DNA of 64,000 nucleotides from an uncultured Lachnospiraceae bacterium (GCA_947643615.1 CANRWO010000011.1:10195-74194), one strand, 5' to 3'; shown: positions 12,725 through 61,094, counted from the first letter of the stretch. Numbers and translations are program-made. The notes: generated by a model from the sequence alone, not told the origin.

Positions 12725-15160
12725 ATGCAGAAATGGGCCAGGGCGCTGTATCAGCCTATGCTCCCTATGGGGAAAGACGGAAGAAGGGTCACGGAATGCG
12801 AAGAGCATATCCGGCTTTCCAAGGAAGCGGCAAAGGAAGGGATGGTACTGTTAAAAAATGAGGACGGCCTGCTTCCTCTGGCAAGAGGCAGTAAAGTAGC
12901 GCTGTTTGGAAAAGCAAGTTTTGATTATGTAAAGGGCGGAGGGGGAAGCGGTGACGTAACGGTTTCCTATACGCGGAATCTGTATGAAGGCTTGAAGAAA
13001 AAATCGGATCAGGTGGCAGTTTTTGAGGAATTATCCGATTTTTATAAGAAAAATGTGGAAAAGCAATATGAGGCAGGGAGCGTCCCGGGACTCACGGTGG
13101 AGCCGGAAGTCCCGGCGGGGCTGTTGGGAAAAGCGAGAGCCTTCACGGATACGGCAATCATTGCTATCAGCAGGTTTTCCGGGGAAGGCTGGGACAGAAG
13201 CGTACAGTCCCTAGGACAGAAGCTTGTCAATGTGGAGGACCGGAATCTTTATGAAAAAGCGGAAAGAGTTTTCGAGAAAGGCGATTTTTATCTGAGCCGA
13301 GGGGAAGAAGCCATGGTGTGCACAGTAAAGAAAGCTTTTCCGAAGGTAATTGTCGTTATGAATGTGGGCGGTATGGTAGATTCCTCCTGGTTTGCCCGTG
13401 ACCCGGAGATACAGTCCGTGCTGATGGCATGGCAGGGAGGTATGGAGGGCGGACTGGCGGCCGCAGAGCTTCTGGTAGGGGAAGGGAACCCCAGCGGCAA
13501 GCTGGCGGATACTTTTGCAGGCAAGCTTGAGGATTACCCTTCCAGCGGGAATTTTCATGAGTCAGAGGATTATGTAGATTATACTGAGGACATCTATGTG
13601 GGTTACCGCTATTTTGAGACCATACCGAAAGCTGCCGATAAGGTGAACTATCCTTTTGGCTATGGATTGTCCTATACAAGTTTTTCCCTGGGATCGCCTC
13701 TGGCGGAGCAAAAAGAGGATTACAAAGAGGGTTACAAAGAAGATTACATAGAAGTCACGGTTCCCGTATGCAATACCGGTAATGTCCCGGGAAAAGAGGT
13801 AGTACAGGTATATTTCAGCGCCCCTCAGGGGAAGCTTGGCAAGCCTGCAAGGGAATTGGCCGCTTTCCGGAAGAGTCGGCTTTTGAATCCCGGGGAGACC
13901 CAGGTAATATTGGTCCGTTTCCGGGTAAACGACATGGCTTCTTATGATGACTTGGGGAAGATTGCCGGGTCAGCATATGTACTGGAGCAGGGGACTTACC
14001 GTTTTTATGTGGGCACTTCAGTAAGGGATACGGTGGAAACGGAGTTTACCCTGGAGATTCCTGAGGACTTGGTTACCCGGCAGCTCTCCGGTAAACTGTC
14101 CCCCACATCCCTGAAAATGAGAATGCGTGAGGACGGCAGTTATGAAGAACTTCCCCAGGGAGAACCCCATGACACGGATGCAAATGCCCTGGAACCTCCG
14201 GCGGAAAAGGCAGCCGGGTTTGCCCCGGCCATAAAGGCCCATGACAGATACAAACTGTGGGGAGAAGAAAAGAAAGTACACACTTTTGATGAGGTTGCAG
14301 GGGGAAGCGTGTCTCTGGAGGAGTTCATGGCACAGCTTTCCGACGGACAGCTGGCGGATTTATTGGGCGGGCAGCCGAATACCGGAGTGGCGGACGTGTT
14401 CGGCTACGGTAACCTGCCGGAATATGGCGTTCCCAATGTGATGACAGCGGACGGCCCTGCCGGTCTGCGGATCCTGCCAAACAGGGGCGTCTGCACTACG
14501 GCGTGGCCCTGTGCCACTCTGCTGGCATGCACATGGAACCCGGAACTGGCAGAGCAGGTGGGGGCAGCAGGAGGAGCGGAGGTCAAGGAGAATAATATTG
14601 CCATGTGGCTTACTCCCGCTATTAACATCCACAGGAGTCCCTTATGCGGCAGGAACTTTGAGTATTACTCCGAGGATCCACTGCTTACGGGTAAGCTGGC
14701 GGCAGCCATGGTCAGGGGGATCCAGAGCAACCGTGTAGGCGCTTCCGTAAAGCACTTTGCCCTGAACAATAAGGAAACAAACCGTAAGAACAGCGACTCC
14801 AGGGCATCGGAGAGGGCCATCCGGGAAATTTATTTGAGAGCTTTTGAGATTGTTGTCAAGGAGGCTGACCCCTGGTGCATTATGTCCTCTTACAATATTA
14901 TCAACGGACGCCGGGCATCGGAGAACAGGGAGCTGTTGGAAGATATTCTGCGCGGCGAGTGGGGTTTCAGGGGAATGGTGACGACCGATTGGTGGACTGC
15001 AGGCGAACATTATAAAGAGACGAAAGCCGGCAATGACGCCAAGATGGGATGCGGATATCCGGAAAGGCTGTTGGAAGCAATGGAGAAGGGTGTTTTGAGC
15101 AGGGGAGAGATGGAAGTATGCGCCCGGAGGATCTTGGAAATGATCTTGAAACTGGATTAG
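12725..15160 (+). CDS. GH3 beta-glucosidase, permuted domain order (GH3_C, FnIII, GH3_N)
   Basis: AGGAGG RBS; VLLKNE, SGKLADT, EVVQVY, DGPAG, GRNFEYYSEDP, KHFA, TDW nucleophile motif. Confidence 0.93.
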   Translation: MQKWARALYQPMLPMGKDGRRVTECEEHIRLSKEAAKEGMVLLKNEDGLLPLARGSKVALFGKASFDYVKGGGGSGDVTVSYTRNLYEGLKKKSDQVAVFEELSDFYKKNVEKQYEAGSVPGLTVEPEVPAGLLGKARAFTDTAIIAISRFSGEGWDRSVQSLGQKLVNVEDRNLYEKAERVFEKGDFYLSRGEEAMVCTVKKAFPKVIVVMNVGGMVDSSWFARDPEIQSVLMAWQGGMEGGLAAAELLVGEGNPSGKLADTFAGKLEDYPSSGNFHESEDYVDYTEDIYVGYRYFETIPKAADKVNYPFGYGLSYTSFSLGSPLAEQKEDYKEGYKEDYIEVTVPVCNTGNVPGKEVVQVYFSAPQGKLGKPARELAAFRKSRLLNPGETQVILVRFRVNDMASYDDLGKIAGSAYVLEQGTYRFYVGTSVRDTVETEFTLEIPEDLVTRQLSGKLSPTSLKMRMREDGSYEELPQGEPHDTDANALEPPAEKAAGFAPAIKAHDRYKLWGEEKKVHTFDEVAGGSVSLEEFMAQLSDGQLADLLGGQPNTGVADVFGYGNLPEYGVPNVMTADGPAGLRILPNRGVCTTAWPCATLLACTWNPELAEQVGAAGGAEVKENNIAMWLTPAINIHRSPLCGRNFEYYSEDPLLTGKLAAAMVRGIQSNRVGASVKHFALNNKETNRKNSDSRASERAIREIYLRAFEIVVKEADPWCIMSSYNIINGRRASENRELLEDILRGEWGFRGMVTTDWWTAGEHYKETKAGNDAKMGCGYPERLLEAMEKGVLSRGEMEVCARRILEMILKLD

Positions 15161-15381: not shown

Positions 15382-16899
15382 ATGAGCAGGGAAACGGAAA
15401 ACGAAATGAGACAGATCCAGCAGGGGTTGGAGGCATTTCTGCAGCAGGAACTCCGGGAAATAGAGGCGGAGGGCGTACAGCGGCAGCCGGAACCTCAGTT
15501 GTATACCATGGGGGAAGAAGAGACAGATAAGGAGTTGGACATCATAGGAAACACATCCGGCAGGAAAAAGGTACCGACAAAAAAGCAAGTGAGAGAAATC
15601 GATTATGAAGAAGATTATTATGAAGATGATTATATAGAGGATTGGGACAGTCCCGAAAGAGCGGCAAATACCGGGCAAAGGCGAAGGCAGGGAGGGACTT
15701 CGGGAAATCGGCAGGCATCGGGCCGCAGGCCTGCTTCCGGCCGCCAGCCGTCACAGAGCCGTAATACTGCCCCGGGCAGCACACCGCCCCAGAGTCGCAG
15801 GCCTGCTTCCGGCCGCCGTTCGGAGCAATCGGGGTATTACCGTGACAGGGAGGATTATTATGAAGAACCGGCAAAAGCCTCCCGAAAACAGGATAGGAGA
15901 AGCGCACAAAGAGAACCCTCCAGGCAGACAAAGGGGCAGCCTGGGAGAAAGAAAGGATCGGCGCTTAAAAAGCTTTTGGTCACGGCAGTGCTTTTGGTGG
16001 CGTTGGCAGGCTTCGGACTTCACTTTTTGGTAGGTAAAGTATACGGCAAAATGAACTATGAAGAAATTGCGTCGGTGGCGGACCTTCCCATGGAGGAGGA
16101 TGGGGTGGTCAATATTCTGCTGATTGGAAACGATTCCCGGCAAAACGGTGAAGACGGACGGTCCGACGCTATGATCCTGCTGTCTGTCAGCAGCAAAACC
16201 AAGACGGTTTATATGACATCCCTGTTAAGAGACATGTATGTGGAGATACCTGGGCATGACGGCAACCGTTTAAACGCCGCATATTCCTTTGGGGGTGCGG
16301 AGCTTTTGATGGAAACGGTGGAACAGAATCTGGATATTCCCGTGAACCGGTATATGCTGGTGAATTTTGAAGCCTTTGCCAACCTGGTGGATGCCGTGGA
16401 CGGAGTGGACCTGGAACTTACCACCGAGGAACTGGAGTATGTGAACGGATATCTGGTGGAGTATAATATGCTCACAGGCCGGCCCCAGGGAACGGACAAT
16501 ATGGATACAACGAAACCCGGCCTGGTACACCTGAATGGGCCACAGGCCCTTGCATATTGCCGGAACCGCTACATTGGCACGGATTTCGGCCGCACGGAGA
16601 GACAGCGCAAAGTGCTCACCGCGGTGATCAAAAAGCTTCCCAAGGCAATCGGTACCAACTATCAGGCATTGATTGACGGGTTGATGCCCAACCTTACTAC
16701 CAACCTGACCCAGACCGAGTGTTTCCGCCTGAGCCTTATGGCGGGCAGGCTCCTGACCTATGACATTGTTTCGGACAGCATCCCTCAGCCAAATACCTAC
16801 AAGAATGCCACGATCCGTAAGATGGCGGTATTGGAAGTGGATTTTGAAGCCAATATCAAATATTTGAAGGAAAAGATTTACGGTGAAACGGGAAAATGA
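15382..16899 (+). CDS. LCP (LytR-CpsA-Psr) family cell-wall glycopolymer transferase
   Basis: Long low-complexity cytoplasmic N-terminus, TM, then NILLIGND, GRSDAMIL, RLNAAY, DFGRTERQR. Confidence 0.93.
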   Translation: MSRETENEMRQIQQGLEAFLQQELREIEAEGVQRQPEPQLYTMGEEETDKELDIIGNTSGRKKVPTKKQVREIDYEEDYYEDDYIEDWDSPERAANTGQRRRQGGTSGNRQASGRRPASGRQPSQSRNTAPGSTPPQSRRPASGRRSEQSGYYRDREDYYEEPAKASRKQDRRSAQREPSRQTKGQPGRKKGSALKKLLVTAVLLVALAGFGLHFLVGKVYGKMNYEEIASVADLPMEEDGVVNILLIGNDSRQNGEDGRSDAMILLSVSSKTKTVYMTSLLRDMYVEIPGHDGNRLNAAYSFGGAELLMETVEQNLDIPVNRYMLVNFEAFANLVDAVDGVDLELTTEELEYVNGYLVEYNMLTGRPQGTDNMDTTKPGLVHLNGPQALAYCRNRYIGTDFGRTERQRKVLTAVIKKLPKAIGTNYQALIDGLMPNLTTNLTQTECFRLSLMAGRLLTYDIVSDSIPQPNTYKNATIRKMAVLEVDFEANIKYLKEKIYGETGK

Positions 16900-18667: not shown

Positions 18668-19846
18668 ATGAATTTAAACAGTGGAAAAGTTCTGGCAGTT
18701 GTATTGTCGGCTGTGGGAGCCTGTCTGGCGGCAGGCTGCGCCGGCGGTACACAGGAGGAAACGTCTGTGGCTGTACTCCAGCCTCAGCCGTTGAAAGACA
18801 TCAGCGATGTCACGGAACCTTCGTCTTTACCGGTATCTGCGTCGGCCGAAGAACCTTCAATGGAGGAAAGTACCGCTTCGGAGGAAGAGGGATCCCACAT
18901 TGTGACAATTACCATTTCCGCTGCCGGTGATGTGACTTTAGGCACCCATCACCAACAGGACTACTGGTATTCCTTTCGCCAGGCCTATGACGAGGCGGAG
19001 GATGAGAGTTATTTCTTTGCCAATGTTTATGACATTTTCAGTTCGGACGATATGACGCTGGTTAACCTGGAGGGGCCGCTGACGCTTGCGGAGGAGGCCA
19101 GGGAAGGCCAGGTCTACAGTATCAAAGGAGACCCCCGGTATGCGGATATACTCACTGCAGGCAGTGTGGAAGCGGTGAGCTTGGGTAATAACCATATGAT
19201 GGATTACCTGGAGCAGGGCAGGAATGATACGGTCCAGGCAGTGGAAGAAGCGGGCATTGTTTATGCCTATGAGAAGACGGTGGGTATTTATGAGGTGAAG
19301 GGTATCCATATCGGTATGATTTCCGTCAATGAAGTGTCCCAAGGATATCTGGTGGAGGATACCATACAGAAAGGGATCGCCGAACTGCAGGAGCAGGGCG
19401 CAGACCTGATCCTGGTGAGCTGCCACTGGGGAGTGGAGAGGGAATACTGCCCGGAGGATTACCAGAAGATCCTGGGAGAAAAGTGTATTGATTGGGGAGC
19501 GGATCTTGTGATAGGGCACCATCCCCATGTGCTCCAGGGAATCGACGAATATAAGGGAAAATATATCATTTACAGTCTGGGAAATTTCTGTTTTGGCGCC
19601 AATCGTAATCCACCGGACAAGGATTCCATGATATTTCAGCAGACGTTTACTTTTATAGACGGGGAAAAACAGGAGGATCAGGAGATTCGTGTAATTCCCT
19701 GTTCCGTCAGCTCCGTGCCGGAGCGCAATAATTTCCAACCCACCCCTGCAGAGGGCGACGAGAAGACCCGTATTCTGGGGAGGATCAATGAATTCAGCCT
19801 GGAATTCGGTGTACAGTTTGACGGGGACGGGTATCGGTTGTGGTAA
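18668..19846 (+). CDS. CapA-family metallophosphoesterase lipoprotein
   Basis: Lipobox LAAGC; AAGDVTLG, NLEG, LGNNH, HWG, GHHPHVLQ, YSLGNF. Confidence 0.88.
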   Translation: MNLNSGKVLAVVLSAVGACLAAGCAGGTQEETSVAVLQPQPLKDISDVTEPSSLPVSASAEEPSMEESTASEEEGSHIVTITISAAGDVTLGTHHQQDYWYSFRQAYDEAEDESYFFANVYDIFSSDDMTLVNLEGPLTLAEEAREGQVYSIKGDPRYADILTAGSVEAVSLGNNHMMDYLEQGRNDTVQAVEEAGIVYAYEKTVGIYEVKGIHIGMISVNEVSQGYLVEDTIQKGIAELQEQGADLILVSCHWGVEREYCPEDYQKILGEKCIDWGADLVIGHHPHVLQGIDEYKGKYIIYSLGNFCFGANRNPPDKDSMIFQQTFTFIDGEKQEDQEIRVIPCSVSSVPERNNFQPTPAEGDEKTRILGRINEFSLEFGVQFDGDGYRLW

Positions 19847-49821: not shown

Positions 49822-51000
49822 TTATGTTTCATCAATAAGTTCTCCTTCAGCATTGTATATTTTTATTCCTTTGGGATAGAAATCCAAGCATGTAACCGTT
49901 TCAAGTAACATGTCGGTTAAATATATTTTATAGACCCCGGTATTTAATTGTACAATATAGGTATTGTCCGGTGAGAGTACGATGGTGGTTTCCGTAAGTT
50001 CAGGCGGACAATAATAAGCTTCCAGAGTGTACAAGTGCGATACCAGGTATACGCACACCGTCATGGCTGTCAGCAGGAAAGTGACAGCCGCTTTTTTACC
50101 CGGGGAAGTGTCGTGAAAAAGCATGATACAACGCTTTTTTAAATCACTGTTCCGTGCGTGTAAAAGGAAAGTGGAATCCTTTTTAAGGTAACCGGGTGCC
50201 TCTGAGGCAGATGCAAGAGCCTGCTTGTGCATGTATAGAAGACAGTCCGCGTACTCTTTCGTGGCAGCGGGATTTTCATGGACTAATCTTCTGTCAATAG
50301 ACATTTCCAGCAGGAGATTGGCCTGCTTCTGCAGTAGGATGCAGATTGGATTCCACCAATATATGTAAGAAAACAGCCGTACTGCAAGCTTGATGAAATG
50401 GTCGTGGTGAAAGTAATGTAAGGCTTCATGACGAAGGATATATTGCAGCTGACCGGGAGTGATGGCTATATCCTTTGGAATCAGAATGTATGGCTTTCTA
50501 AAGTAAAAGAGAGAAGGGATGTCCAACCCTCTCAGTTCTACAACACTAAAAATATTTTCTTTGTCATAACAAGTGCAAATATGGTCTAAGGGTTCCTTGT
50601 ACCGGGGCATATCCGTGGCATCTGTGCCGTATTTCAAAATATAGTTTCTGGAATGAAAACAATTCCTGGTCCCCAAAATGAGCTTGACAATAATGCCGCA
50701 GACCCATATGAGCTCAAATATACCCCAATAGGATACTCGGAACCCCCTAATATACATGCGGGTTGACTGGATGGCGGTTAGAGCCTTTGATATGGTTTGC
50801 GGAGGAATAACATTAACGGCAAAGGGGAACTCATAGGGAAAGAGCAGCCGGAGAATAGCCACTACAACTATAACTGCTAATAAATTACTGCCCGCATTTG
50901 CCATTATATTCCAATTTAGAAATGCCACAGCAATCAATATGGCGAGAATGCTGCCGGCTAAAATTGCCATGTATACAGTTGAAAACGAGTATTGCAGCAT
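49822..51000 (-). CDS. BlaR1/MecR1-type M56 membrane metalloprotease with a short C-terminal sensor
   Basis: LR...P.FP, LRHEALHYFHHDH, YWWNP, EMSID; C-terminal TM plus about 65 aa; no penicillin-binding domain. Confidence 0.85.
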   Translation of the reverse strand: MLQYSFSTVYMAILAGSILAILIAVAFLNWNIMANAGSNLLAVIVVVAILRLLFPYEFPFAVNVIPPQTISKALTAIQSTRMYIRGFRVSYWGIFELIWVCGIIVKLILGTRNCFHSRNYILKYGTDATDMPRYKEPLDHICTCYDKENIFSVVELRGLDIPSLFYFRKPYILIPKDIAITPGQLQYILRHEALHYFHHDHFIKLAVRLFSYIYWWNPICILLQKQANLLLEMSIDRRLVHENPAATKEYADCLLYMHKQALASASEAPGYLKKDSTFLLHARNSDLKKRCIMLFHDTSPGKKAAVTFLLTAMTVCVYLVSHLYTLEAYYCPPELTETTIVLSPDNTYIVQLNTGVYKIYLTDMLLETVTCLDFYPKGIKIYNAEGELIDET

Positions 51001-51039
51001 ATGATTCTCCTTTTGCCTGATTGGTCATTTCAATATAAT

Positions 51040-51447
51040 CTACCGGTTCTTATCCGTTTTCTTCTTATATTCGTCAAGTAATTGTTCCAGTTCGGCAATC
51101 TCATTTTGGGCATCATTAGGACGGTGGTCTGCCCGCAACAGAGCGCTGAACAGGGACTGGCCGGATATCAGCCTCTTGAATCGCAGGTAATCGTCCATAA
51201 ACATTTTCTCAATAATGTCAGGGGCGTCTGCAGTGGATTGAAATCTCCTGGCCAGGACATTACCGTCAATGGAAATATCCGCCACCTCGATGAGTTTAAG
51301 CTTTAAGAGCTTGCGGATGGCAGGCTGTACAATATTCACTGTCAATTCAGGCTGTATTTTAATGAGCTGAGATGCACTCAAAGGCTCCTCTGAATGAAAA
51401 ATCATATTTAAAATATTGTATTCCTTAGGATTCAAATATTTGTTCAA
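51040..51447 (-). CDS. BlaI/MecI/CopY-like winged-helix regulator
   Basis: LNPKEYNILNMIFHSEEPLSASQL...IRKLLKLKLIEV; directly upstream of the M56 gene. Confidence 0.8.
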   Translation of the reverse strand: MNKYLNPKEYNILNMIFHSEEPLSASQLIKIQPELTVNIVQPAIRKLLKLKLIEVADISIDGNVLARRFQSTADAPDIIEKMFMDDYLRFKRLISGQSLFSALLRADHRPNDAQNEIAELEQLLDEYKKKTDKNR

Positions 51448-51669
51448 ATCTATTTCCTCACTGTCTGGTCTTTTGGTCTAGTTATTTTATCAAAATATTA
51501 TTTTCCATTAGAGTGTATAATATCAATTTACATTTTTCAACAAATATTAACAAATACACTCAAAATAATTCAAAAAATACTAAATTTAAAAAATAATTGA
51601 CAAATAATGACAAGTGTGAATAATATTTTATTATCAGTACTAACCATTCTGAAAGGAGGCAGGAAAATT

Positions 51670-53487
51670 ATGCGAAGGGGTACGTATCGGACAATCTTGT
51701 CTCTGATTATGGTAATTGCTTTCTTTTTCCTGTCAGTGCCTTGCGTTGGAAATGCGACTGAGAAGACTGACGGTGGTAAATCGGTGATTTTCCTCCTGGA
51801 TGCCAGCGGGAGCATGAAGTCAAATGATCCGGACAGGTTCGTAATAGATGATATCGTACAGATGATTTACACTCTTCCCACAGAATATCAAGCGGGATTT
51901 GTAGCATACGGGGCAGAGATTACCGCGGAGCAGGGATTGGCGGGAAACGGTGGCAGAAATAATGTGGCGGCAGCCGTTAAGGGAGTAGAGTACAAGGGTT
52001 ACAGCAATGCCGGCATCGGATTGCAGCGTGCGGTTGAGTTACTTTTGGAAGATGCCGGGAAAGACAGGCATATTGTCATGTTTTCGGACGGAGAGATCCT
52101 GATGGACAGCCAGGAAATGACGGAAGCGTCCGGGGCACTTTTTCAAAGCGCAGTCGGACAAGCAGAGGAGGCAGGGATAACTATCCATGTTCTCGGCCTG
52201 GGCGAGGACATGGAAGATATGGGCAATTCTATCTTTGATGCGGCGCACAGGACCGTTGGCCAAAGCTGCCATGCTGCGCAGGCGGAGGATATCCGGAAGG
52301 CAATTAGTCAGGTTTTAGTTGAAGGACTGGCCATCAAGCGCTCCACTGTGGCTGTTGTGGAAGCAGGTGGGGAAACGGAAACGGTAGGCGTGGAGCTTCC
52401 CTATGCCTATGCCGATAAGCTTCGCATATTGCTCACCAGCAACGCGCCCATACAGAATGTAAGCGCTAATTTCCAGGCGGAAAGCGCACGGCAGTTTAAC
52501 GGAGAAAGACATGCGCTGATTGAGATAGAAGACCCTTCGGGAGGAGAATTGGAGATCCGCTTTGAAGGTATTCCGGGCAGCCAGGTAGAGATTTACGTCA
52601 TTCCCGAATATTATGTGGATGTCCGGGCGGAGGTCATTTACACGGACAGGGTGCCGGAGGAAGCCGGGGACATACAGGGAGATAATATTATGGCTGAAAA
52701 GGACGCATATTATCAGCGCACTGCCTGTATCCTATACACTTTTTCCAGAGCGGACAATGAAAATATTTTATTGTGGAATACAGATTATTTCCAGCACAAC
52801 AAGATTTCGGTCACTGTAAATGAGGAGACAAAAGAGCTGGCTTTGAATGAAGGAAGGCTGCAAATCGAGGAAAGAGTGACGGACTCCTGTATCTATGAAG
52901 CCTGGTTCGACTATTCGCAGCTTCCGGTTAATGTGGTCGGCACGGATTCTGCCAGGGTGGAGCTGGAAGGTGCGCCTCCGCTGCCGGAACCCCAAGAGGA
53001 ACCCAAGCCGCCGTACTTGCTGATCGGAGCGTCTATAGTCCTTTTACTTATCTTGCTGACAATTGTTTTGTTATGGCTCCGGCGAAGGCCCAAGCCTGTT
53101 CCGGCGCCGTTGGAGGAAAGGCCGGAACCCAGCAGATACAGTTATGTGGGGATGCTGAAGTTATATATTACCAGGACGAGAGCCGGATACGACATCCCGC
53201 CTTTATCTTTTAACCTGTTCAGGACTTCCGCGGGGAGGGTGATATCCCTGCAGGAAATCATAAAGAACTGTGATGTGAAGGAGGAGTTTGCCGGGGCGGA
53301 AGCAATTTACTTTAAGGCAGGCCCAGGCAGGACGTTGATCCTCACCAACAACTCGGACTGCACCATTATGAAGAACCGTGAGATATTGATGAAAAAGCAA
53401 AGCTATCAGCTGCCCTTGGATTCTAAGGTGGATATTTCCTTTGAGGACGAGATCAGTGAATTGACCTTTCAGTACAAGGAGGCGTAG
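51670..53487 (+). CDS. Single-pass vWA-domain surface protein with a cytoplasmic beta domain
   Basis: Signal peptide; MIDAS LLDASGSM...FSDG; Ig-like region; Pro-rich linker; TM plus RRRPK; about 120-aa cytoplasmic beta-rich tail. Confidence 0.88.
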   Translation: MRRGTYRTILSLIMVIAFFFLSVPCVGNATEKTDGGKSVIFLLDASGSMKSNDPDRFVIDDIVQMIYTLPTEYQAGFVAYGAEITAEQGLAGNGGRNNVAAAVKGVEYKGYSNAGIGLQRAVELLLEDAGKDRHIVMFSDGEILMDSQEMTEASGALFQSAVGQAEEAGITIHVLGLGEDMEDMGNSIFDAAHRTVGQSCHAAQAEDIRKAISQVLVEGLAIKRSTVAVVEAGGETETVGVELPYAYADKLRILLTSNAPIQNVSANFQAESARQFNGERHALIEIEDPSGGELEIRFEGIPGSQVEIYVIPEYYVDVRAEVIYTDRVPEEAGDIQGDNIMAEKDAYYQRTACILYTFSRADNENILLWNTDYFQHNKISVTVNEETKELALNEGRLQIEERVTDSCIYEAWFDYSQLPVNVVGTDSARVELEGAPPLPEPQEEPKPPYLLIGASIVLLLILLTIVLLWLRRRPKPVPAPLEERPEPSRYSYVGMLKLYITRTRAGYDIPPLSFNLFRTSAGRVISLQEIIKNCDVKEEFAGAEAIYFKAGPGRTLILTNNSDCTIMKNREILMKKQSYQLPLDSKVDISFEDEISELTFQYKEA

Positions 53488-57321: not shown

Positions 57322-57867
57322 ATGAAGAGAGCGATCAATGTGGCGATAGCGGTTTTTTCTATTGAGATAGCAGTCATATTGGCAGTAAAGACTGACTGGA
57401 CGGATAGCTGGTTTTGGATTATGGCTGCGGCCCTTTTTGCAATTGCGCATATGGGAATGGCATTAAGAAAGAACAGGGAAGACGTTGGGCAAAGGAAGCC
57501 GGCCTTTTCTGCGCCTGTTCTGCCGGATACGGCGCTGACAGAGGTGGCGCTCCTGGGGGAGGATGGCACCCGGCTGGCATTCTGGAATATCTATGGGAAA
57601 AACGGAATTGTGATAGGCCGGGATATCGGAGAGAACAATGTCACCATTAATTTGGACAACAGCACTTATGCAAGCATGATAGATGTAGAGCACGCTGTTT
57701 TAAATTATTCAGGGGATTGCTGGTACATAGAGGACATTTCGGAGAAAAACGGCGTCAGCATACAGAAACAGGATGGCAGGAAGTACAGGCTTGCCTATGG
57801 AAAACCTTGCAGGCTGGAAAAGGGCGATATCATTTACATTGCCCTCACACGGCTTCAGATTTTATAA
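57322..57867 (+). CDS. Membrane-anchored FHA-domain protein (degenerate phosphothreonine site)
   Basis: Two N-terminal TMs; VIGRD...IDVEHA...EKNGV, with the conserved Ser of SxxH replaced by Asp. Confidence 0.85.
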   Translation: MKRAINVAIAVFSIEIAVILAVKTDWTDSWFWIMAAALFAIAHMGMALRKNREDVGQRKPAFSAPVLPDTALTEVALLGEDGTRLAFWNIYGKNGIVIGRDIGENNVTINLDNSTYASMIDVEHAVLNYSGDCWYIEDISEKNGVSIQKQDGRKYRLAYGKPCRLEKGDIIYIALTRLQIL

Positions 57868-57897
57868 ATGCAATTAATATCAAAGGATGGTGGTCTA

Positions 57898-58422
57898 ATG
57901 GGAGAATCAAATTTAATCCGCTGCCAGAACGGGCACTTATTCAGTAAGAAGCGGTATGGAACCGTCTGCCCCTATTGCAATGTGGAGACGGAAACCAGGG
58001 AAAAGAAGGAAGTACAGAAGACGGAAGTAGATATGGAGGAGGAACTGTTCAGAGAGGATATCAAGCCGGTTTGTGGCTGGCTGGTATGCATTTCGGGCCC
58101 CCGCCAAGGCAAGGATTATAAAATCGTGCAGGGTAAGAATTTCATTGGCAGGGCGGACGACATGGATATCCAGATTCTGGGTGACAATGAGATTTCCAGA
58201 AGGAACCATGCCATAATCGTGTTTGACCCCAAGAAAAAAGAGACCGTACTCTTACCGGGGGATTCTAACGGACTGGTCTACCTGAATGAAAATGCGGTGT
58301 ACACCCCCATGACTCTTAGCAGTTACGACAAGATTGAATTGGGAAAATCCGTTTTTGCTTTTCTGCCCTTTTGCGGAAATCATTTTATGTGGGGAGAGAA
58401 AGACGGCAGCGCGCAGAATTGA
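57898..58422 (+). CDS. Zinc-ribbon plus canonical FHA-domain protein
   Basis: CQNGH...CPYC; FIGRADD...ISRRNHA...SNG. Confidence 0.88.
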   Translation: MGESNLIRCQNGHLFSKKRYGTVCPYCNVETETREKKEVQKTEVDMEEELFREDIKPVCGWLVCISGPRQGKDYKIVQGKNFIGRADDMDIQILGDNEISRRNHAIIVFDPKKKETVLLPGDSNGLVYLNENAVYTPMTLSSYDKIELGKSVFAFLPFCGNHFMWGEKDGSAQN

Positions 58423-58473
58423 GTATGAAGAATTAATTGGCTTATGTGCCAAAGCACGCAAAGGGGTATAAGC

Positions 58474-59319
58474 ATGAATACGGTTTTTTTAGTGATTGTC
58501 ATATTGGTGATCATCATTATCCTGTTGGAAATCGTGAAATGGCGGATTCCGGAAAAAGCGGAGAGCGGACCGGATACCGATGTAGGAACTTGTATGACGA
58601 TTGGAAGCAGGGATGTGCAGGAGGACCAGCTTGGAGTCATGGAGACCGCAGCGGGTATTATGGCAGTGTTGGCGGACGGTGCGGGAAAAACTTATGGAGG
58701 CCGGATTGCGGCCAGGACAGCCGTGAACACATTCCAGGATATTTTTCGGGACTATAATGCTTTTAATAACCCCCAATATTATTTCAGAAAAGCTTTCCAC
58801 TGTGCCAACAGGGAAATCCTGAAGGCTGTGGGAGATGAGAGCCGCGGTACAGCCAGCGTGGGATGTGTTATGGCCCGGGGAGGTTTCCTGTACTATGCGC
58901 TGGTGGGAAATGTAAAGGTCTGTGTATTTCGGGAAGATTCTCTAATCCCTGTGTCTGTGGGACACACGGTTGCGGTGATGGCGGAACAGAAATTTCGGGA
59001 AGGTAAGATATCGAGACAGGACACCATAGAACTGCTTGAAAACCAGAGGCTCTATAACTACCTGGGAAAAGACGACTTTCAGGATATTGAATTTTTTGAT
59101 GCCCCCATACGGCTGAAAACAGGAGACATTGTGGCGCTGATGAGCGACGGCGTGTACGACTTTCTGGGTTTTAAAGAGGTAGAAGAGATTCTCCGGGGAA
59201 AAGGCAGCTGCCGGGAAATGGCATTGGCAGTCATTGAAAAAGTGAATTGCGGAGCCGGTGACCAGAAGGACAATGCAAGCGTAATTCTGATCAGGGTGAG
59301 AAACGAGGCTGTGGGATGA
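58474..59319 (+). CDS. Membrane-anchored PP2C/PPM Ser/Thr phosphatase
   Basis: N-terminal TM; GSRDVQED, LADGAG, MSDGV, DNASV motifs all intact. Confidence 0.9.
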   Translation: MNTVFLVIVILVIIIILLEIVKWRIPEKAESGPDTDVGTCMTIGSRDVQEDQLGVMETAAGIMAVLADGAGKTYGGRIAARTAVNTFQDIFRDYNAFNNPQYYFRKAFHCANREILKAVGDESRGTASVGCVMARGGFLYYALVGNVKVCVFREDSLIPVSVGHTVAVMAEQKFREGKISRQDTIELLENQRLYNYLGKDDFQDIEFFDAPIRLKTGDIVALMSDGVYDFLGFKEVEEILRGKGSCREMALAVIEKVNCGAGDQKDNASVILIRVRNEAVG

Positions 59320-61094
59320 GAAAGCAGAATTCGGAATTTTTGACGGCGTTCACGTCTGAAGCCAGCAATGACATCAAAAATACAGATTACTTTGGTTTCG
59401 TGGAACTGGATGATTTTGCGTGCTATGTCATTGCGGACGGGATTGACGACCAGTTGGAGGCTCTGAGTGCAAGACTGGCGGTCACTGCGGCTACCAACGC
59501 ATTTTTAGAGGCCCCGTCCATGGGGCGCCGTACCGTCAAGAAATGCCTCAGGGCAGCCAACAAGGCGCTGTTGGAGGCAAAAAGCAAGACCAAACTGAAG
59601 GCATCTGTGTTGATCGTAGTCACTAACTATGTGAAGCTGCGGTATGGACAGGCGGGCAACATCAGGCTGCGTCTGTACCGCAACGGATTTTTACAGCATG
59701 CCACGGCGGATCAGTCTCTTACGATGGAGCTGGTCCGTGAGGAGAAAGTTCCCCGGGATAAAGTGGCGGAGCATATTGAGAGAAATAATTTATTTACCTA
59801 TCTGGGACAGGAGAAGGATTTCCACCCCCATGTGTCCAAAAAGATCAAGCTGACCAATTCGGACGCGGTAGCGCTATATACGCGCGGAGTGTGGGAGCAT
59901 GTGGATGAAGGGGAGCTGAAGGATTTATTTGCCGATGCCACGGACCAGCCGGAGGAGACCGTGGACGGCATGGAGGATCTTTTGCTGTCAAGGCAGCCGG
60001 GAGACTTACAGAAATATACCTTTGTGGTTATCTTCGCCAATAAATTGTTTGTAGACCCGAACCGGAAGAGAAAGATCCGCAGGGTCATTATGGCCGCTAT
60101 CCCAATCATTACGCTGATTGCAGTCGCGGGGGTGCTGCTGATGCTGCGGCATAACAGGAGAGAAGACAAGAAAGCACAGCTGCAGCTGGCTTATACGGAT
60201 ACTATAGAGTATATACAGATAAATAATTATATCAGGGCGGGAGAGACCTGTGGAAATGCCTATAGTCTGGCGGAGGAGCTAAAGGACCGGGGCATGCAGG
60301 CGGAGTTAGGCAATTGCCGGAAGCTAATCGAGGCGGTCCAGGCTGCACAGGGCCTTTTGGACGCTGAAGAGTACGCAGAGGCACAGAGCGCGTTTTTAGA
60401 GGCGGCGAAGCAGTCGGCGTATGTGGACAATTTGGGTTTGGATTATATCAAAGAAAAACTGGAATTGACGGCAGGCTATATCTCCGTGTATGACTCCATC
60501 TACCTGGGAGACAGCCTGATGCAGAACCTGCAGTATGACAGGGCAGAAGAGAAATACCTGGAAGCAAAGGCACAGGCTTTGAAGCTCTATTTTGACAGTG
60601 GGCGCAGCGCGGCAATAGAAGCGCTGGAGAAGCTGTATGAGGAACGGAGGGCACTGGCAGAGGCGGAAGAAGAGGCGAGGCAGGAACAGCTTGCAGCAGA
60701 GGAATCAGGGGCAAATTTTATTGCCCAGGGCGACGTGGTATTTGCCCAGGGAGATTATGAGAGTGCTTTGGTGTATTATACCTCTGCACTGCAAAAGTAT
60801 GAACAGCTGGGGGATGAAATCCAAAAAGAAGCAGTGCAGGCAAAATTGGATGTCACAATGCGGAAAATAGAGGATAAGGATAAACTGGCTTCGGAGGCAG
60901 ACGGGTATATGGCCCAGGCTTCCAGTGCCATGGACGCCGGGGACTATATCGGAGCAAGGAAATACTATCTGTTGGCCAGGGATGTATATGCCACCATAAA
61001 GGATGAAGAAGGGTTGGGTGAGGTTTCCAGAAAGATGGAGATGCTGGATATTAAGGAAAGCAGCCAGCCACCGGTGCAGGAAAGCGAGGAATAG
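59316..61094 (+). CDS. PP2C-like domain (degenerate), TM helix and TPR/coiled-coil ectodomain
   Basis: IADGID retained but YTRGV replaces SDG and KYTF replaces DN; TM, then tandem Ala/Tyr-rich TPR-like helices; ATGA overlap. Confidence 0.8.
   Translation: MRKQNSEFLTAFTSEASNDIKNTDYFGFVELDDFACYVIADGIDDQLEALSARLAVTAATNAFLEAPSMGRRTVKKCLRAANKALLEAKSKTKLKASVLIVVTNYVKLRYGQAGNIRLRLYRNGFLQHATADQSLTMELVREEKVPRDKVAEHIERNNLFTYLGQEKDFHPHVSKKIKLTNSDAVALYTRGVWEHVDEGELKDLFADATDQPEETVDGMEDLLLSRQPGDLQKYTFVVIFANKLFVDPNRKRKIRRVIMAAIPIITLIAVAGVLLMLRHNRREDKKAQLQLAYTDTIEYIQINNYIRAGETCGNAYSLAEELKDRGMQAELGNCRKLIEAVQAAQGLLDAEEYAEAQSAFLEAAKQSAYVDNLGLDYIKEKLELTAGYISVYDSIYLGDSLMQNLQYDRAEEKYLEAKAQALKLYFDSGRSAAIEALEKLYEERRALAEAEEEARQEQLAAEESGANFIAQGDVVFAQGDYESALVYYTSALQKYEQLGDEIQKEAVQAKLDVTMRKIEDKDKLASEADGYMAQASSAMDAGDYIGARKYYLLARDVYATIKDEEGLGEVSRKMEMLDIKESSQPPVQESEE

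What the first reader, a model, noticed from the sequence alone, without database searches (positions are those of the whole stretch)
57322..61094. Paired active and degenerate FHA and PP2C proteins, with no kinase in view
Seen: FHA 57898 keeps GR, SxxxH and NG, while membrane FHA 57322 has lost the Ser. PP2C 58474 keeps all metal-binding motifs, while PP2C 59316 has lost two Asp motifs and is fused via a TM to a TPR-like ectodomain. Inference: a transmembrane pseudo-phosphatase receptor passes an outside signal to an active phosphatase/FHA switch that gates assembly or firing. The kinase must lie downstream, or be the housekeeping PrkC.
Basis: partly seen in the sequence, partly recalled or inferred. 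Interest (0 to 1): 0.62.

Follow-up and report, generated by a model that had tools for sequence, protein, structure and literature searches.

The report
Kinase-less FHA/PP2C membrane module of injector
Four adjacent genes in a Gram-positive gut bacterium pair a normal-looking and a degenerate copy each of a phosphothreonine reader (FHA) and a phosphatase (PP2C); they descend from an ordinary kinase signalling cassette that lost its kinase and became a fixed, membrane-anchored part of a type VI-like toxin-injection gene cluster.

Summary
Genes 57322, 57898, 58474 and 59316 (+ strand) encode four proteins:
- a two-TM FHA whose phosphate-binding Ser is Asp;
- a Zn-ribbon FHA with GR, SRRNH and NG;
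- a TM-anchored PP2C that keeps the four Asp of the two-metal centre;
- a PP2C-like domain joined by one TM helix to about 300 residues of TPR-like repeats, lacking the motif 8 and 11 Asp.

The motif 8 Asp is missing in all 70 loci and in 70/70 diverse family representatives. No Hanks kinase lies in the rest of the contig. Only 1 of 70 homologous clusters has one.

New here:
- The vWA protein's cytoplasmic tail is a third, degenerate FHA fold.
- These proteins are the only membrane proteins of the 18-gene cluster.
- The Zn-ribbon FHA is the most conserved protein of the cluster.
- The "active" PP2C has decayed independently in many lineages.
- The two PP2Cs are each sister to one paralog of a clostridial cassette that carries Zn-ribbon Hanks kinases, two canonical PP2Cs, a Zn-ribbon FHA and membrane FHA proteins.

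My reading: an exapted signalling cassette now serves as the membrane docking and checkpoint platform of a T6SS-like machine, with residual phospho-control through a kinase encoded elsewhere.

The parts
51607..53487 (+). First gene of the cluster: signal peptide, extracellular vWA domain with a DxSxS MIDAS motif (about 51781-52296), a stalk, one TM helix (about 53017-53073) and a cytoplasmic tail.
   Evidence: Pfam VWA E=9e-12. Hydrophobic segments at residues 30-48 and 471-489. The flanking charges put the tail inside.
53152..53484 (+). Cytoplasmic tail of the vWA protein: a third, sequence-degenerate FHA fold (GK in the consensus, no SxxH, no NG).
   Evidence: AF2 pLDDT 88, pTM 0.80. The top 50 Foldseek PDB matches are all FHA domains (E from 2e-4, TM about 0.5). 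No Pfam FHA hit. Relatives in kinase cassettes carry a canonical FHA at this position.
57322..57867 (+). FHA1tm: two TM helices (57331-57387 and 57409-57465) and a cytoplasmic FHA domain (about 57538-57864) with GR, His and NG, but Asp in place of the phosphate-binding Ser.
   Evidence: Pfam FHA E=1.3e-8. TM scan. The Ser position is Asp or Glu in most orthologs, and Ser only in L059, L061, L072 and L073.
57898..58422 (+). FHA2zn: a soluble protein with a CxxxH...CxxC Zn ribbon (57922-57978) and an FHA domain (about 58060-58392) carrying GR, S-R-R-N-H and NG. It is the most conserved protein of the cluster.
   Evidence: Pfam FHA and Yop-YscD_cpl. Alignment to GarA. Consensus start MGESNL and motif conservation. 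Median identity 82%, against 79% for the sheath.
58474..59319 (+). PP2Ca: an N-terminal TM anchor (58480-58536) and a cytoplasmic PP2C domain (about 58579-59307). The Asp of motifs 1, 2, 8 and 11 are intact; the third-metal Asp is Asn.
   Evidence: NCBIfam Stp1 E=3e-22. Alignment to tPphA. 51/51 orthologs keep the four Asp. Charge flanks put the domain inside.
59316..60050 (+). PP2Cpsi, N-terminal cytoplasmic PP2C-like pseudo-phosphatase domain. Motif 8 Asp is Arg. Motif 11 DN reads QK. The motif 1 Arg is Asp. DGxGG reads DGIDD. GDSR reads GNIR.
   Evidence: NCBIfam Stp1 E=6e-17. Alignment to 2pk0. Motif counts. Foldseek matches to 2pk0, 2j82 and 1txo over about 246 columns. AF2 confidence for this domain is low.
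60084..60140 (+). The single TM helix of PP2Cpsi.
   Evidence: Hydropathy 2.78 over residues 257-275. Part of one long helix, 248-301, in the model. Median K+R is 7 on the N-side flank and 5 on the C-side flank.
60186..61061 (+). PP2Cpsi C-terminal TPR-like helical-repeat domain, predicted to be extracellular.
   Evidence: AF2 pLDDT 85-96 with alternating helices. Foldseek best matches are LGN, consensus-TPR and Rap TPR proteins (E about 5e-5, but TM only 0.1-0.2). phmmer matches to designed TPR proteins. Homologs carry Pfam TPR_12 and TPR_2.

Best explanation
The four genes, together with the vWA-TM-FHA-fold gene at 51607, are a kinase-less derivative of a clostridial signalling cassette. That cassette holds Zn-ribbon Hanks kinase(s), two PP2Cs, a Zn-ribbon FHA and membrane proteins with cytoplasmic FHA domains. 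It was captured by a T6SS-like sheath/tube/spike cluster and became a fixed core part of it.

Shown by sequence and models:
- All FHA and PP2C folds face the cytoplasm. Four of the five sit on membrane proteins. The vWA and TPR-like domains face outward.
- One PP2C (psi) is a dead enzyme in every family member.
- Two of the three FHA folds have lost phosphate-binding residues.
- These are the only membrane proteins the cluster encodes.

Inferred:
- Together they form the membrane-associated platform on which the baseplate, sheath and tube are docked and licensed.
- The fast-evolving ectodomains (vWA, TPR-like) report wall or target contact.
- The dead PP2C and the degenerate FHA folds act as protein-binding scaffolds.
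- In this clade FHA2zn still reads a phosphothreonine, written by a kinase encoded elsewhere (most simply the PrkC homolog) and erased by PP2Ca. This would be analogous to Fha1/PppA in the T6SS threonine phosphorylation pathway.
- PP2Cpsi most likely controls PP2Ca or holds its substrate. The two genes are translationally coupled.
For: Synteny:
- The order FHA1tm, FHA2zn, PP2Ca, PP2Cpsi is invariant in 70 clusters. These span Lachnospiraceae, Oscillospiraceae and four further families, down to 28% identity.
- The quartet is always embedded between the Hcp-like/DnaJ genes and the p451/p239/Hsp70-like genes.
- Spike and tip parts of the cluster: Phage_GPD and Phage_base_V, and DUF4280 at E=1e-16.

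Membrane and conservation:
- Only vWA, FHA1tm, PP2Ca and PP2Cpsi have TM segments among the 18 cluster proteins. Charge flanks fit cytoplasmic FHA and PP2C domains.
- Median identity to the window: FHA2zn 82%, above the sheath at 79%. The pseudo-PP2C domain is at 72%, above the active PP2C domain at 68%. Ectodomains are the least conserved.

Pseudo-enzyme status: the motif 8 Asp is absent in every locus examined and in 70/70 representatives, while TRGxW and NYT stay conserved.

Origin:
- In an IQ-TREE phylogeny, PP2Ca (support 97/92) and PP2Cpsi (100/100) are each sister (99/94 and 99/95) to a different canonical PP2C paralog of kinase-containing cassettes.
- Those cassettes also hold a Zn-ribbon FHA with the same ribbon and the same ISRxNH motif, a vWA-TM-canonical-FHA protein and a protease-TM-FHA protein.
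- One cluster (L061) still carries a kinase. That kinase scores higher against cassette kinases than against the PrkC homolog.
- The vWA tail has an FHA fold.

Phospho-control retained in this clade: 51/51 PP2Ca orthologs keep the four Asp, and FHA2zn keeps GR, S and H.
Against: - There is no experimental, expression or interaction data.
- Topology rests on hydropathy and charge counts only. The C-side flank of the PP2Cpsi TM helix is also basic.
- The AF2 model of the pseudo-PP2C domain has low confidence (pLDDT 30-75). The TPR fold matches have low global TM-scores.
- The 'platform' role is argued from the absence of other membrane proteins in the cluster. Such parts could be encoded elsewhere, or the machine could be unanchored.
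- A kinase acting from elsewhere is assumed, not shown. Cluster-bearing genomes have no more kinases than others.
- An attempt to show that FHA2zn pocket residues co-vary with PP2Ca integrity was inconclusive.
Confidence: 0.55

Rival explanations
1. The module is a pure regulatory switch. The TPR-bearing pseudo-phosphatase senses an outside cue and controls PP2Ca. PP2Ca with FHA2zn then gates assembly or firing exactly as PppA and Fha1 do in Pseudomonas. The proteins are accessory regulators, not parts of the machine.
For: - The domain set matches the T6SS threonine phosphorylation pathway (review PMC13584744).
- PP2Ca is catalytically intact in 51/51 close orthologs, and FHA2zn keeps its pocket residues.
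- One lineage keeps a kinase in the cluster.
- The ectodomains evolve faster than the cytoplasmic domains.
Against: - In proteobacteria these regulators are accessory and patchy. Here the quartet is present in 70/70 clusters.
- PP2Ca has lost its catalytic Asp independently in L057-L059, L062, L063 and L067-L071, yet the gene is retained.
- A kinase is absent from 69/70 clusters.
- FHA2zn is as conserved as the sheath and tube.
- The cluster encodes no other membrane component.
Confidence: 0.25
2. The module is purely structural and independent of phosphorylation, in this genome too. All FHA and PP2C folds would be protein-protein docking domains, as in T3SS SctD, T7SS EssC and the pseudokinase EssB. 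The conserved catalytic-looking residues of PP2Ca and FHA2zn would serve folding or binding only.
For: - No kinase in 69/70 clusters.
- Many lineages carry two dead PP2Cs.
- FHA2zn scores better against the phospho-independent Yop-YscD_cpl model than against FHA.
- FHA proteins (TagH) are listed for Vibrio and Aeromonas T6SS, which the same table does not list under the TagE kinase.
Against: - The four metal-binding Asp of PP2Ca are invariant in 51 orthologs spanning 53-87% identity. The motif 1 Arg is kept in 46 of the 51 (Cys in 5). That is hard to explain without catalysis.
- FHA2zn keeps the same GR and ISRxNH signature as its kinase-linked relatives.
- One lineage retains the kinase.
Confidence: 0.15
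3. The four genes are an unrelated housekeeping or envelope-stress signalling operon, comparable to FhaA-FhaB-PstP of actinobacteria, that merely sits inside the cluster.
For: - Both FHA proteins give their best NCBIfam match to FhaB/FipA.
- The PP2C-TM-ectodomain architecture resembles PstP (1txo among the fold matches).
Against: - Position and order are identical in 70 clusters from six families. The genes are packed with 0-30 bp gaps or overlaps.
- The family occurs in only about 5% of Lachnospiraceae genera, and always with the cluster.
- The genome has its own Stp/PrkC operon elsewhere.
Confidence: 0.03

Closest known systems
T6SS threonine phosphorylation pathway (TagE/PpkA kinase, TagG/PppA PP2C, TagH/Fha1) of Pseudomonas aeruginosa H1-T6SS, Agrobacterium and Serratia
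   Same: - An FHA protein and a PP2C phosphatase are encoded inside a contractile sheath/tube/spike cluster.
- A vWA ectodomain is part of the module. That PpkA carries a periplasmic vWA domain is from my own knowledge.
- The presumed role is licensing assembly at the membrane (PMC13584744).
   Different: - No kinase in 69/70 clusters.
- Three FHA folds and two PP2C folds, with one PP2C always dead.
- Four of the five domains are membrane-anchored.
- The vWA domain sits on an FHA-fold protein, not on the kinase.
- The module is universal in this cluster type rather than accessory.
- The host is Gram-positive.
- By phylogeny the parts come from a clostridial cassette, not from the proteobacterial genes.
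Clostridial cassette of Zn-ribbon Hanks kinase(s), two PP2Cs, a Zn-ribbon FHA, a vWA-TM-FHA protein and a protease-TM-FHA protein (loci L074-L082). It belongs to the kinase/PP2C/vWA linkage noted by Kaur et al. 2020 (PMC7159879) and to the 'TerY-P triad' (the latter from my own knowledge).
   Same: - The same Zn ribbon (CxNGH...CPYC) and ISRxNH FHA.
- The same two PP2C paralogs (sister groups in the tree).
- The same vWA-TM-FHA architecture.
- The same count of 3 FHA plus 2 PP2C.
   Different: - In the cassette both PP2Cs and all FHA domains are canonical, and one to five kinases are adjacent.
- In the cluster the kinase is gone.
- One PP2C is dead and has gained a TM helix and TPR-like repeats.
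- The vWA-linked FHA has decayed beyond sequence recognition.
Mycobacterium tuberculosis FhaA-FhaB(FipA)-PstP module
   Same: - Two FHA proteins, one of them membrane-anchored. FhaB/FipA is the best NCBIfam match of both FHA proteins.
- A PP2C with one TM helix and an extracellular C-terminal domain. PstP (1txo) is among the fold matches.
   Different: - PstP is active and works with PknA and PknB in the same operon on cell-wall synthesis (own knowledge).
- Here the TM-ectodomain PP2C is dead, the ectodomain is TPR-like, there is no kinase, and the context is an injection machine.
Signalling folds reused as secretion-system parts: T3SS SctD/YscD cytoplasmic FHA-like domain, T7SS EssC FHA domains, T7SSb EssB/YukC pseudokinase-TM-ectodomain
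   Same: - FHA folds without phosphate-binding residues, and a dead enzyme fold joined by one TM helix to an ectodomain, serve as structural membrane components.
- FHA2zn passes the Pfam Yop-YscD_cpl threshold.
   Different: - Here the dead fold is a PP2C, not a kinase.
- One FHA and one PP2C still look functional in this clade.
- The machine is contractile.
- The EssB and EssC comparison is from my own knowledge and was not tested here.

Membership tests
PP2C/PPM Ser/Thr phosphatase (active enzyme) | PP2C fold recognised by family models | tested here: met
   PP2Ca: NCBIfam Stp1 E=3e-22, and Pfam PP2C_2 and SpoIIE above their cut-offs. PP2Cpsi: Stp1 E=6e-17, but Pfam is below its cut-off. Foldseek matches 2pk0, 2j82 and 1txo.
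PP2C/PPM Ser/Thr phosphatase (active enzyme) | Four Asp of the binuclear metal centre (motifs 1, 2, 8 and 11) plus the phosphate-binding Arg | tested here: met
   This row is for PP2Ca (58474) only. RDVQED, ADG, SDG and KDN are present, and the four Asp are kept in 51/51 orthologs. The third-metal Asp (GDSR) is Asn.
PP2C/PPM Ser/Thr phosphatase (active enzyme) | The same catalytic residues in PP2Cpsi (59316) | tested here: not met
   Motif 8 Asp is Arg. Motif 11 DN reads QK. The motif 1 Arg is Asp. GG reads DD. Motif 8 Asp is present in none of the 70 loci and none of the 70 representatives, and no member keeps all four Asp. File it as a pseudo-phosphatase.
FHA domain (phosphothreonine reader) | FHA beta-sandwich recognised by model or fold | tested here: met
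   FHA1tm: Pfam E=1.3e-8. FHA2zn: E=2.4e-6. vWA tail: fold only, by AF2 and Foldseek, with all top 50 matches being FHA domains.
FHA domain (phosphothreonine reader) | Pocket residues Gly-Arg, Ser-x-x-His and Asn-Gly | tested here: inconclusive
   FHA2zn has GR, S-R-R-N-H (one residue longer than canonical, shared with kinase-linked relatives) and NG. FHA1tm has Asp at the Ser position. The vWA tail has none of these residues. Actual binding cannot be tested here.
T6SS threonine phosphorylation pathway (TPP) | A Hanks kinase (TagE/PpkA) encoded with the system | tested here: not met
   There is no kinase ORF in the window, in the remaining 8.5 kb of the contig, or in 69 of 70 homologous clusters within 10 kb on either side. 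phmmer with three kinases found kinases readily in non-cluster loci.
T6SS threonine phosphorylation pathway (TPP) | A PP2C (TagG) and an FHA protein (TagH) inside a sheath/tube/spike cluster | tested here: met
   Synteny table. VgrG-like and DUF4280 Pfam hits. The TagH model TIGR03354 matches only weakly (E=0.006), so this is an analogy, not orthology.
T6SS threonine phosphorylation pathway (TPP) | Phosphorylation-dependent activation of secretion | not testable with these tools
   This needs phosphoproteomics and genetics.
Clostridial kinase/PP2C/FHA/vWA cassette | Orthology of both PP2Cs and of the Zn-ribbon FHA to the cassette genes | tested here: met
   The tree shows two separate sister relationships (99/94 and 99/95). 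The FHA domain is 42-52% identical, with the same Zn ribbon.
Clostridial kinase/PP2C/FHA/vWA cassette | Adjacent Hanks kinase and canonical catalytic and pocket residues | tested here: not met
   See the rows above. It is a derivative of the cassette, not a member.

The most novel reading that the evidence does not exclude
The vWA-TM-FHA, 2TM-FHA, TM-PP2C and pseudo-PP2C-TM-TPR proteins, bridged by the Zn-ribbon FHA, are the trans-envelope membrane complex of a Gram-positive type VI-like injector. A whole Ser/Thr signalling cassette would have been converted into structural parts that stand in for TssJ, TssL and TssM. A pseudo-phosphatase receptor would then couple wall or target contact to firing, in most lineages without any phosphorylation.
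Probability: 0.3. Interest if true: 0.85.

Novelty: new variant of a known kind. Interest (0 to 1): 0.66.

Why it matters
T6SS-type machines are described as Gram-negative devices anchored by TssJLM. A 2026 review of T6SS accessory factors does not contain the term "Gram-positive" at all.

- **Membrane attachment.** If this cluster is a working injector in Clostridia of the gut, how it attaches to a single membrane and fires through a thick wall is an open question. These five signalling-fold domains are the only membrane-linked candidates.
- **Evolution.** The module is a clear case of a kinase/phosphatase/reader cassette losing its writer while keeping its readers and erasers as scaffolds. 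A family-wide bacterial PP2C pseudo-enzyme is part of it.
- **Testability.** Cultured carriers exist: Anaerocolumna jejuensis DSM 15929, Lachnotalea glycerini DSM 28816, Clostridium sp. KNHs205 and Roseburia sp. 1XD42-69. The question can therefore be addressed directly.

Tried and rejected
1. **hhalign on the vWA tail.** I compared the tail with the two FHA families. It was uninformative: the alignments have Neff below 2, and even the two true FHA families did not match each other. Structure prediction settled the question instead.
2. **First MAFFT placement of motif 11.** It put Tyr at the Asp position. I rejected this in favour of the HMMER placement (Asp to Gln, Asn to Lys) once deeper homologs showed DNYT.
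3. **Asn of NG and the SRRNH insertion as markers of FHA2zn decay.** Rejected. Kinase-linked relatives also have ISRxNH and lack the Asn.
4. **Co-variation of the FHA2zn Ser with PP2Ca catalytic integrity.** Not significant.
5. **Extra kinase in cluster-bearing genomes.** There is no difference: mean 3.5 against 3.4 kinases per genome.
6. **A GarA/OdhI-like ETTS autoinhibitory motif after the Zn ribbon.** ET.T is conserved only in the close clade, not deeper. I keep it only as a weak lead.
7. **Origin of FHA1tm.** Only weak matches to the membrane-tethered FHA domains of the cassettes (E about 1e-5). Left open.
8. **PADLOC.** No defence-system assignment.
9. **Literature.** Four searches found no description of a Gram-positive T6SS-like cluster or of this module. 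A fifth, on bacterial PP2C pseudo-phosphatases with FHA, found nothing relevant.

Full report
**Setting**

The window is C11:10195-74194 of a 3.83 Mb, 126-contig Lachnospiraceae genome. Its nearest public relatives are uncultured Lachnospiraceae and Acetatifactor.

From 51607 to beyond the window end, a tightly packed + strand operon reads in this order:
- a vWA membrane protein;
- a 729-aa sheath-like protein;
- two Hcp-like proteins;
- a J-domain protein;
- the four genes of the finding;
- p451, then p239;
- an 873-aa protein with an Hsp70-like phosphate-binding motif, seen by eye (no Pfam hit);
- p257, then p214;
- a VgrG-like spike (Phage_GPD, Phage_base_V);
- a pentapeptide-repeat protein;
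- an Imm11-like protein;
- a DUF4280 (PAAR-like) toxin.

Earlier notes of this scan report the sheath and Hcp folds as confirmed. I did not re-test them. The only support I saw myself was a below-threshold TssD hit (E=0.098).

**Observation**

- *FHA1tm (57322-57867).* Two hydrophobic helices and a Pfam FHA domain (E=1.3e-8). It has GR, His and NG, but M-I-D-V-E-H where FHA domains have S-x-x-H.
- *FHA2zn.* It starts at 57898. The homolog consensus MGESNL and a GGATGGTGG ribosome-binding site support this. It has a CxxxH...CxxC Zn ribbon and an FHA domain (Pfam FHA E=2.4e-6; Yop-YscD_cpl E=7e-9). GR, S-R-R-N-H and NG are present. HMMER aligns it to GarA with one inserted residue before the His.
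- *PP2Ca.* It starts at 58474. It has an N-terminal anchor helix and a PP2C domain (Stp1 model E=3e-22) with RDVQED, ADGAGK, GNVK, SDG and KDN. The four Asp of the two-metal centre are present, and the third-metal Asp is Asn.
- *PP2Cpsi (59316-61094).* It overlaps the PP2Ca stop codon (ATGA). Its N-terminal 245 residues match the Stp1 model (E=6e-17). They read D-IKNTD, ADGIDD, GNIR, TRG and QKYT at the five motifs.
  - A single TM helix (257-275) follows.
  - Then come about 300 residues of helical repeats, modelled with pLDDT 85-96. Their best fold matches are TPR proteins, though with low global TM-scores. The PP2C-like part of the model has low confidence.

**Conservation of the substitutions**

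I collected 52 loci from species-representative genomes. I added 10 more divergent loci from the same family and 7 from four other families of Clostridia. With the window that makes 70 clusters.
- The quartet is present in the same order in all of them.
- Among the 51-52 close orthologs, PP2Ca keeps all four Asp (51/51).
- PP2Cpsi keeps the motif 1 and motif 2 Asp (52/52) but never has Asp at motif 8: Arg 46, Lys 1, Gly 3, Leu 1, His 1.
- Deeper homologs read DNYT or ENYT at motif 11. That fixes the alignment: in the window Asp is Gln and Asn is Lys. It also shows that the motif 11 loss is specific to this clade, while the motif 8 loss is universal.
- A search of 1.84 billion representative proteins gave 159 family clusters at E<=1e-30. 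In 70 full-length, mutually diverse members, motif 8 is Asp in 0/70 and none keeps all four Asp. The Trp of TRGxW is invariant (70/70) and the Tyr of NYT is kept in 64/70.

So 59316 belongs to a bona fide PP2C pseudo-enzyme family under purifying selection.

**The missing kinase**

- There is no Hanks kinase in the remaining 8.5 kb of the contig.
- The genome's three kinases are elsewhere:
  - a PrkC/Stp operon on C39;
  - a 288-aa kinase on C16;
  - a kinase with its own Zn-ribbon FHA and a PP2C on C72.
- Only 1 of the 70 clusters contains a kinase. In L061 a 301-aa kinase lies between the vWA and sheath genes, with an extra canonical PP2C upstream.
- Cluster-bearing genomes have no more kinases than others: mean 3.5 against 3.4.
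- One cluster-bearing genome (G115, 96% complete) has a single kinase, the PrkC type.

**What is new beyond the finding**

1. *A third FHA fold.* The cytoplasmic tail of the vWA protein is predicted with pLDDT 88. All of its 50 best PDB fold matches are FHA domains, although no sequence model detects it. The module is therefore 3 FHA folds plus 2 PP2C folds.
2. *The only membrane proteins.* vWA, FHA1tm, PP2Ca and PP2Cpsi are the only proteins with TM segments in the 18-gene cluster. Charge counts place all FHA and PP2C domains inside and the vWA and TPR-like domains outside.
3. *Conservation.*
   - FHA2zn is the most conserved protein of the cluster: median 82% identity, with the ribbon at 93% and the FHA domain at 88%. 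The sheath is at 79% and the Hcp-like proteins at 79-80%.
   - The dead PP2C domain (72%) is more conserved than the live one (68%).
   - The ectodomains are the least conserved: vWA 46%, TPR-like 57%.
4. *Decay of the 'active' PP2C.* It is not universally active. It has lost catalytic Asp, with different substitutions, in L057-L059, L062, L063 and L067-L071. It is fully canonical, including GDS, only in L061, L072 and L073. In those three loci FHA1tm also has a canonical Ser.

**Origin**

The nearest relatives of FHA2zn outside the clusters share the Zn ribbon and are 42-52% identical in the FHA domain. They sit in cassettes that contain:
- one to five Zn-ribbon Hanks kinases;
- two canonical PP2Cs;
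- the Zn-ribbon FHA;
- a vWA-TM protein with a canonical FHA;
- a trypsin-like protease-TM protein with a canonical FHA.

A maximum-likelihood tree places cluster PP2Ca (97/92) as sister (99/94) to one cassette paralog. It places PP2Cpsi (100/100, stem length 1.41) as sister (99/95) to the other.

The pair therefore predates recruitment. Both ancestors were canonical enzymes. The psi copy decayed on a long stem branch and gained the TM helix and TPR-like repeats. The L061 kinase scores higher against cassette kinases (90-123 bits) than against the PrkC homolog (83 bits), so it is probably a remnant. The linkage of Zn-ribbon kinases with PP2C and vWA genes has been noted before (PMC7159879).

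**Mechanism**

*Shown:* domain content, predicted topology, pseudo-enzyme status, universal linkage to the sheath/tube/spike genes, descent from a kinase cassette, and repeated decay of catalytic and pocket residues.

*Inferred:*
- The proteins form the membrane-proximal docking and licensing platform of the machine.
- The fast-evolving vWA and TPR-like ectodomains face the wall or target.
- The dead PP2C and the degenerate FHA folds act as binding modules.
- FHA2zn acts as the soluble hub.
- In this clade PP2Ca and the FHA2zn pocket are strictly conserved. A pThr mark written by a kinase encoded elsewhere (most simply PrkC) and erased by PP2Ca probably still modulates FHA2zn binding. This would work like Fha1/PppA in the T6SS threonine phosphorylation pathway (PMC13584744).
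- Translational coupling suggests that PP2Ca and PP2Cpsi act as a pair.

I put 0.55 on this hybrid reading, 0.25 on a pure regulatory switch, 0.15 on a purely structural phospho-independent role, and 0.03 on an unrelated operon.

**Comparison and novelty**

The module works like the T6SS threonine phosphorylation pathway, but it fails that pathway's defining feature, a cognate kinase, and it is not orthologous to it. It is a derivative, not a member, of the clostridial kinase/PP2C/FHA/vWA cassette. It resembles FhaA-FhaB-PstP in architecture. In logic it resembles T3SS SctD, T7SS EssC and EssB, where signalling folds are reused as structural membrane parts.

I found no paper describing it. Earlier notes of this scan flagged the same module in other Firmicutes genomes. 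I class it as a new variant of a known kind.

**Limits**

- There is no expression, interaction or biochemical evidence.
- Topology is predicted from hydropathy and charge counts only.
- The PP2C-like part of the PP2Cpsi model has low confidence.

Noticed in passing
window 49822-51447 (- strand): A BlaR1-like M56 peptidase sensor (392 aa) and a BlaI-like repressor (135 aa) lie directly upstream and divergent from the cluster, so the cluster starts at 51607. The names are by eye from the sequence, not from a family search.
   Followed up: no
L061 (G078:C34) 15957-16862 and 19018-19773, - strand: This is the only cluster of the 70 with its own Hanks kinase (301 aa, with HRD and DFG intact), lying between the vWA and sheath genes. 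An extra canonical PP2C lies upstream. PP2Ca in this locus is fully canonical (GDS).
   Followed up: partly
L069 and L070 (G342:C1, about 3.165 Mb and 3.203 Mb): One complete genome carries two near-identical copies of the whole cluster about 38 kb apart. In both copies PP2Ca is catalytically dead (motif 1 Asp is Thr, motif 8 Asp is Ser).
   Followed up: no
L060 (G043:C2) 13189-14163: In this lineage the Zn-ribbon FHA gene has moved to after p257. It encodes a 324-aa protein with two tandem FHA domains, GK instead of GR, and no Ser.
   Followed up: no
Genome contig C72:60-7902 (L004 covers part of it): A separate locus in the same genome holds a 585-aa Hanks kinase, a double Zn-ribbon FHA protein (204 aa, with GR and SRVH) and a 241-aa PP2C, interleaved with NrdD/NrdG-like genes. 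It is a further candidate for a kinase acting on the cluster from elsewhere.
   Followed up: partly
L074-L082 (for example L081 8379-14972): A clostridial cassette of Zn-ribbon kinases, two PP2Cs, a Zn-ribbon FHA, a vWA-TM-FHA protein and a trypsin-like protease-TM-FHA protein. Some genomes carry up to five kinases in a row (L079). Its function is unknown.
   Followed up: partly
L001 17779-19350 (C11, just beyond the window end): A DUF4280 (PAAR-like) protein of 523 aa with a long C-terminal extension, presumably the toxin. It is preceded by an Imm11-like gene and a pentapeptide-repeat gene. The last ORF runs off the contig end.
   Followed up: no
window 59316-61094, residues 293-301: An invariant extracellular juxtamembrane motif, YTDTIEYIQ, and several Tyr-rich invariant positions occur in the TPR-like domain. 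This suggests a conserved ligand or partner surface.
   Followed up: no
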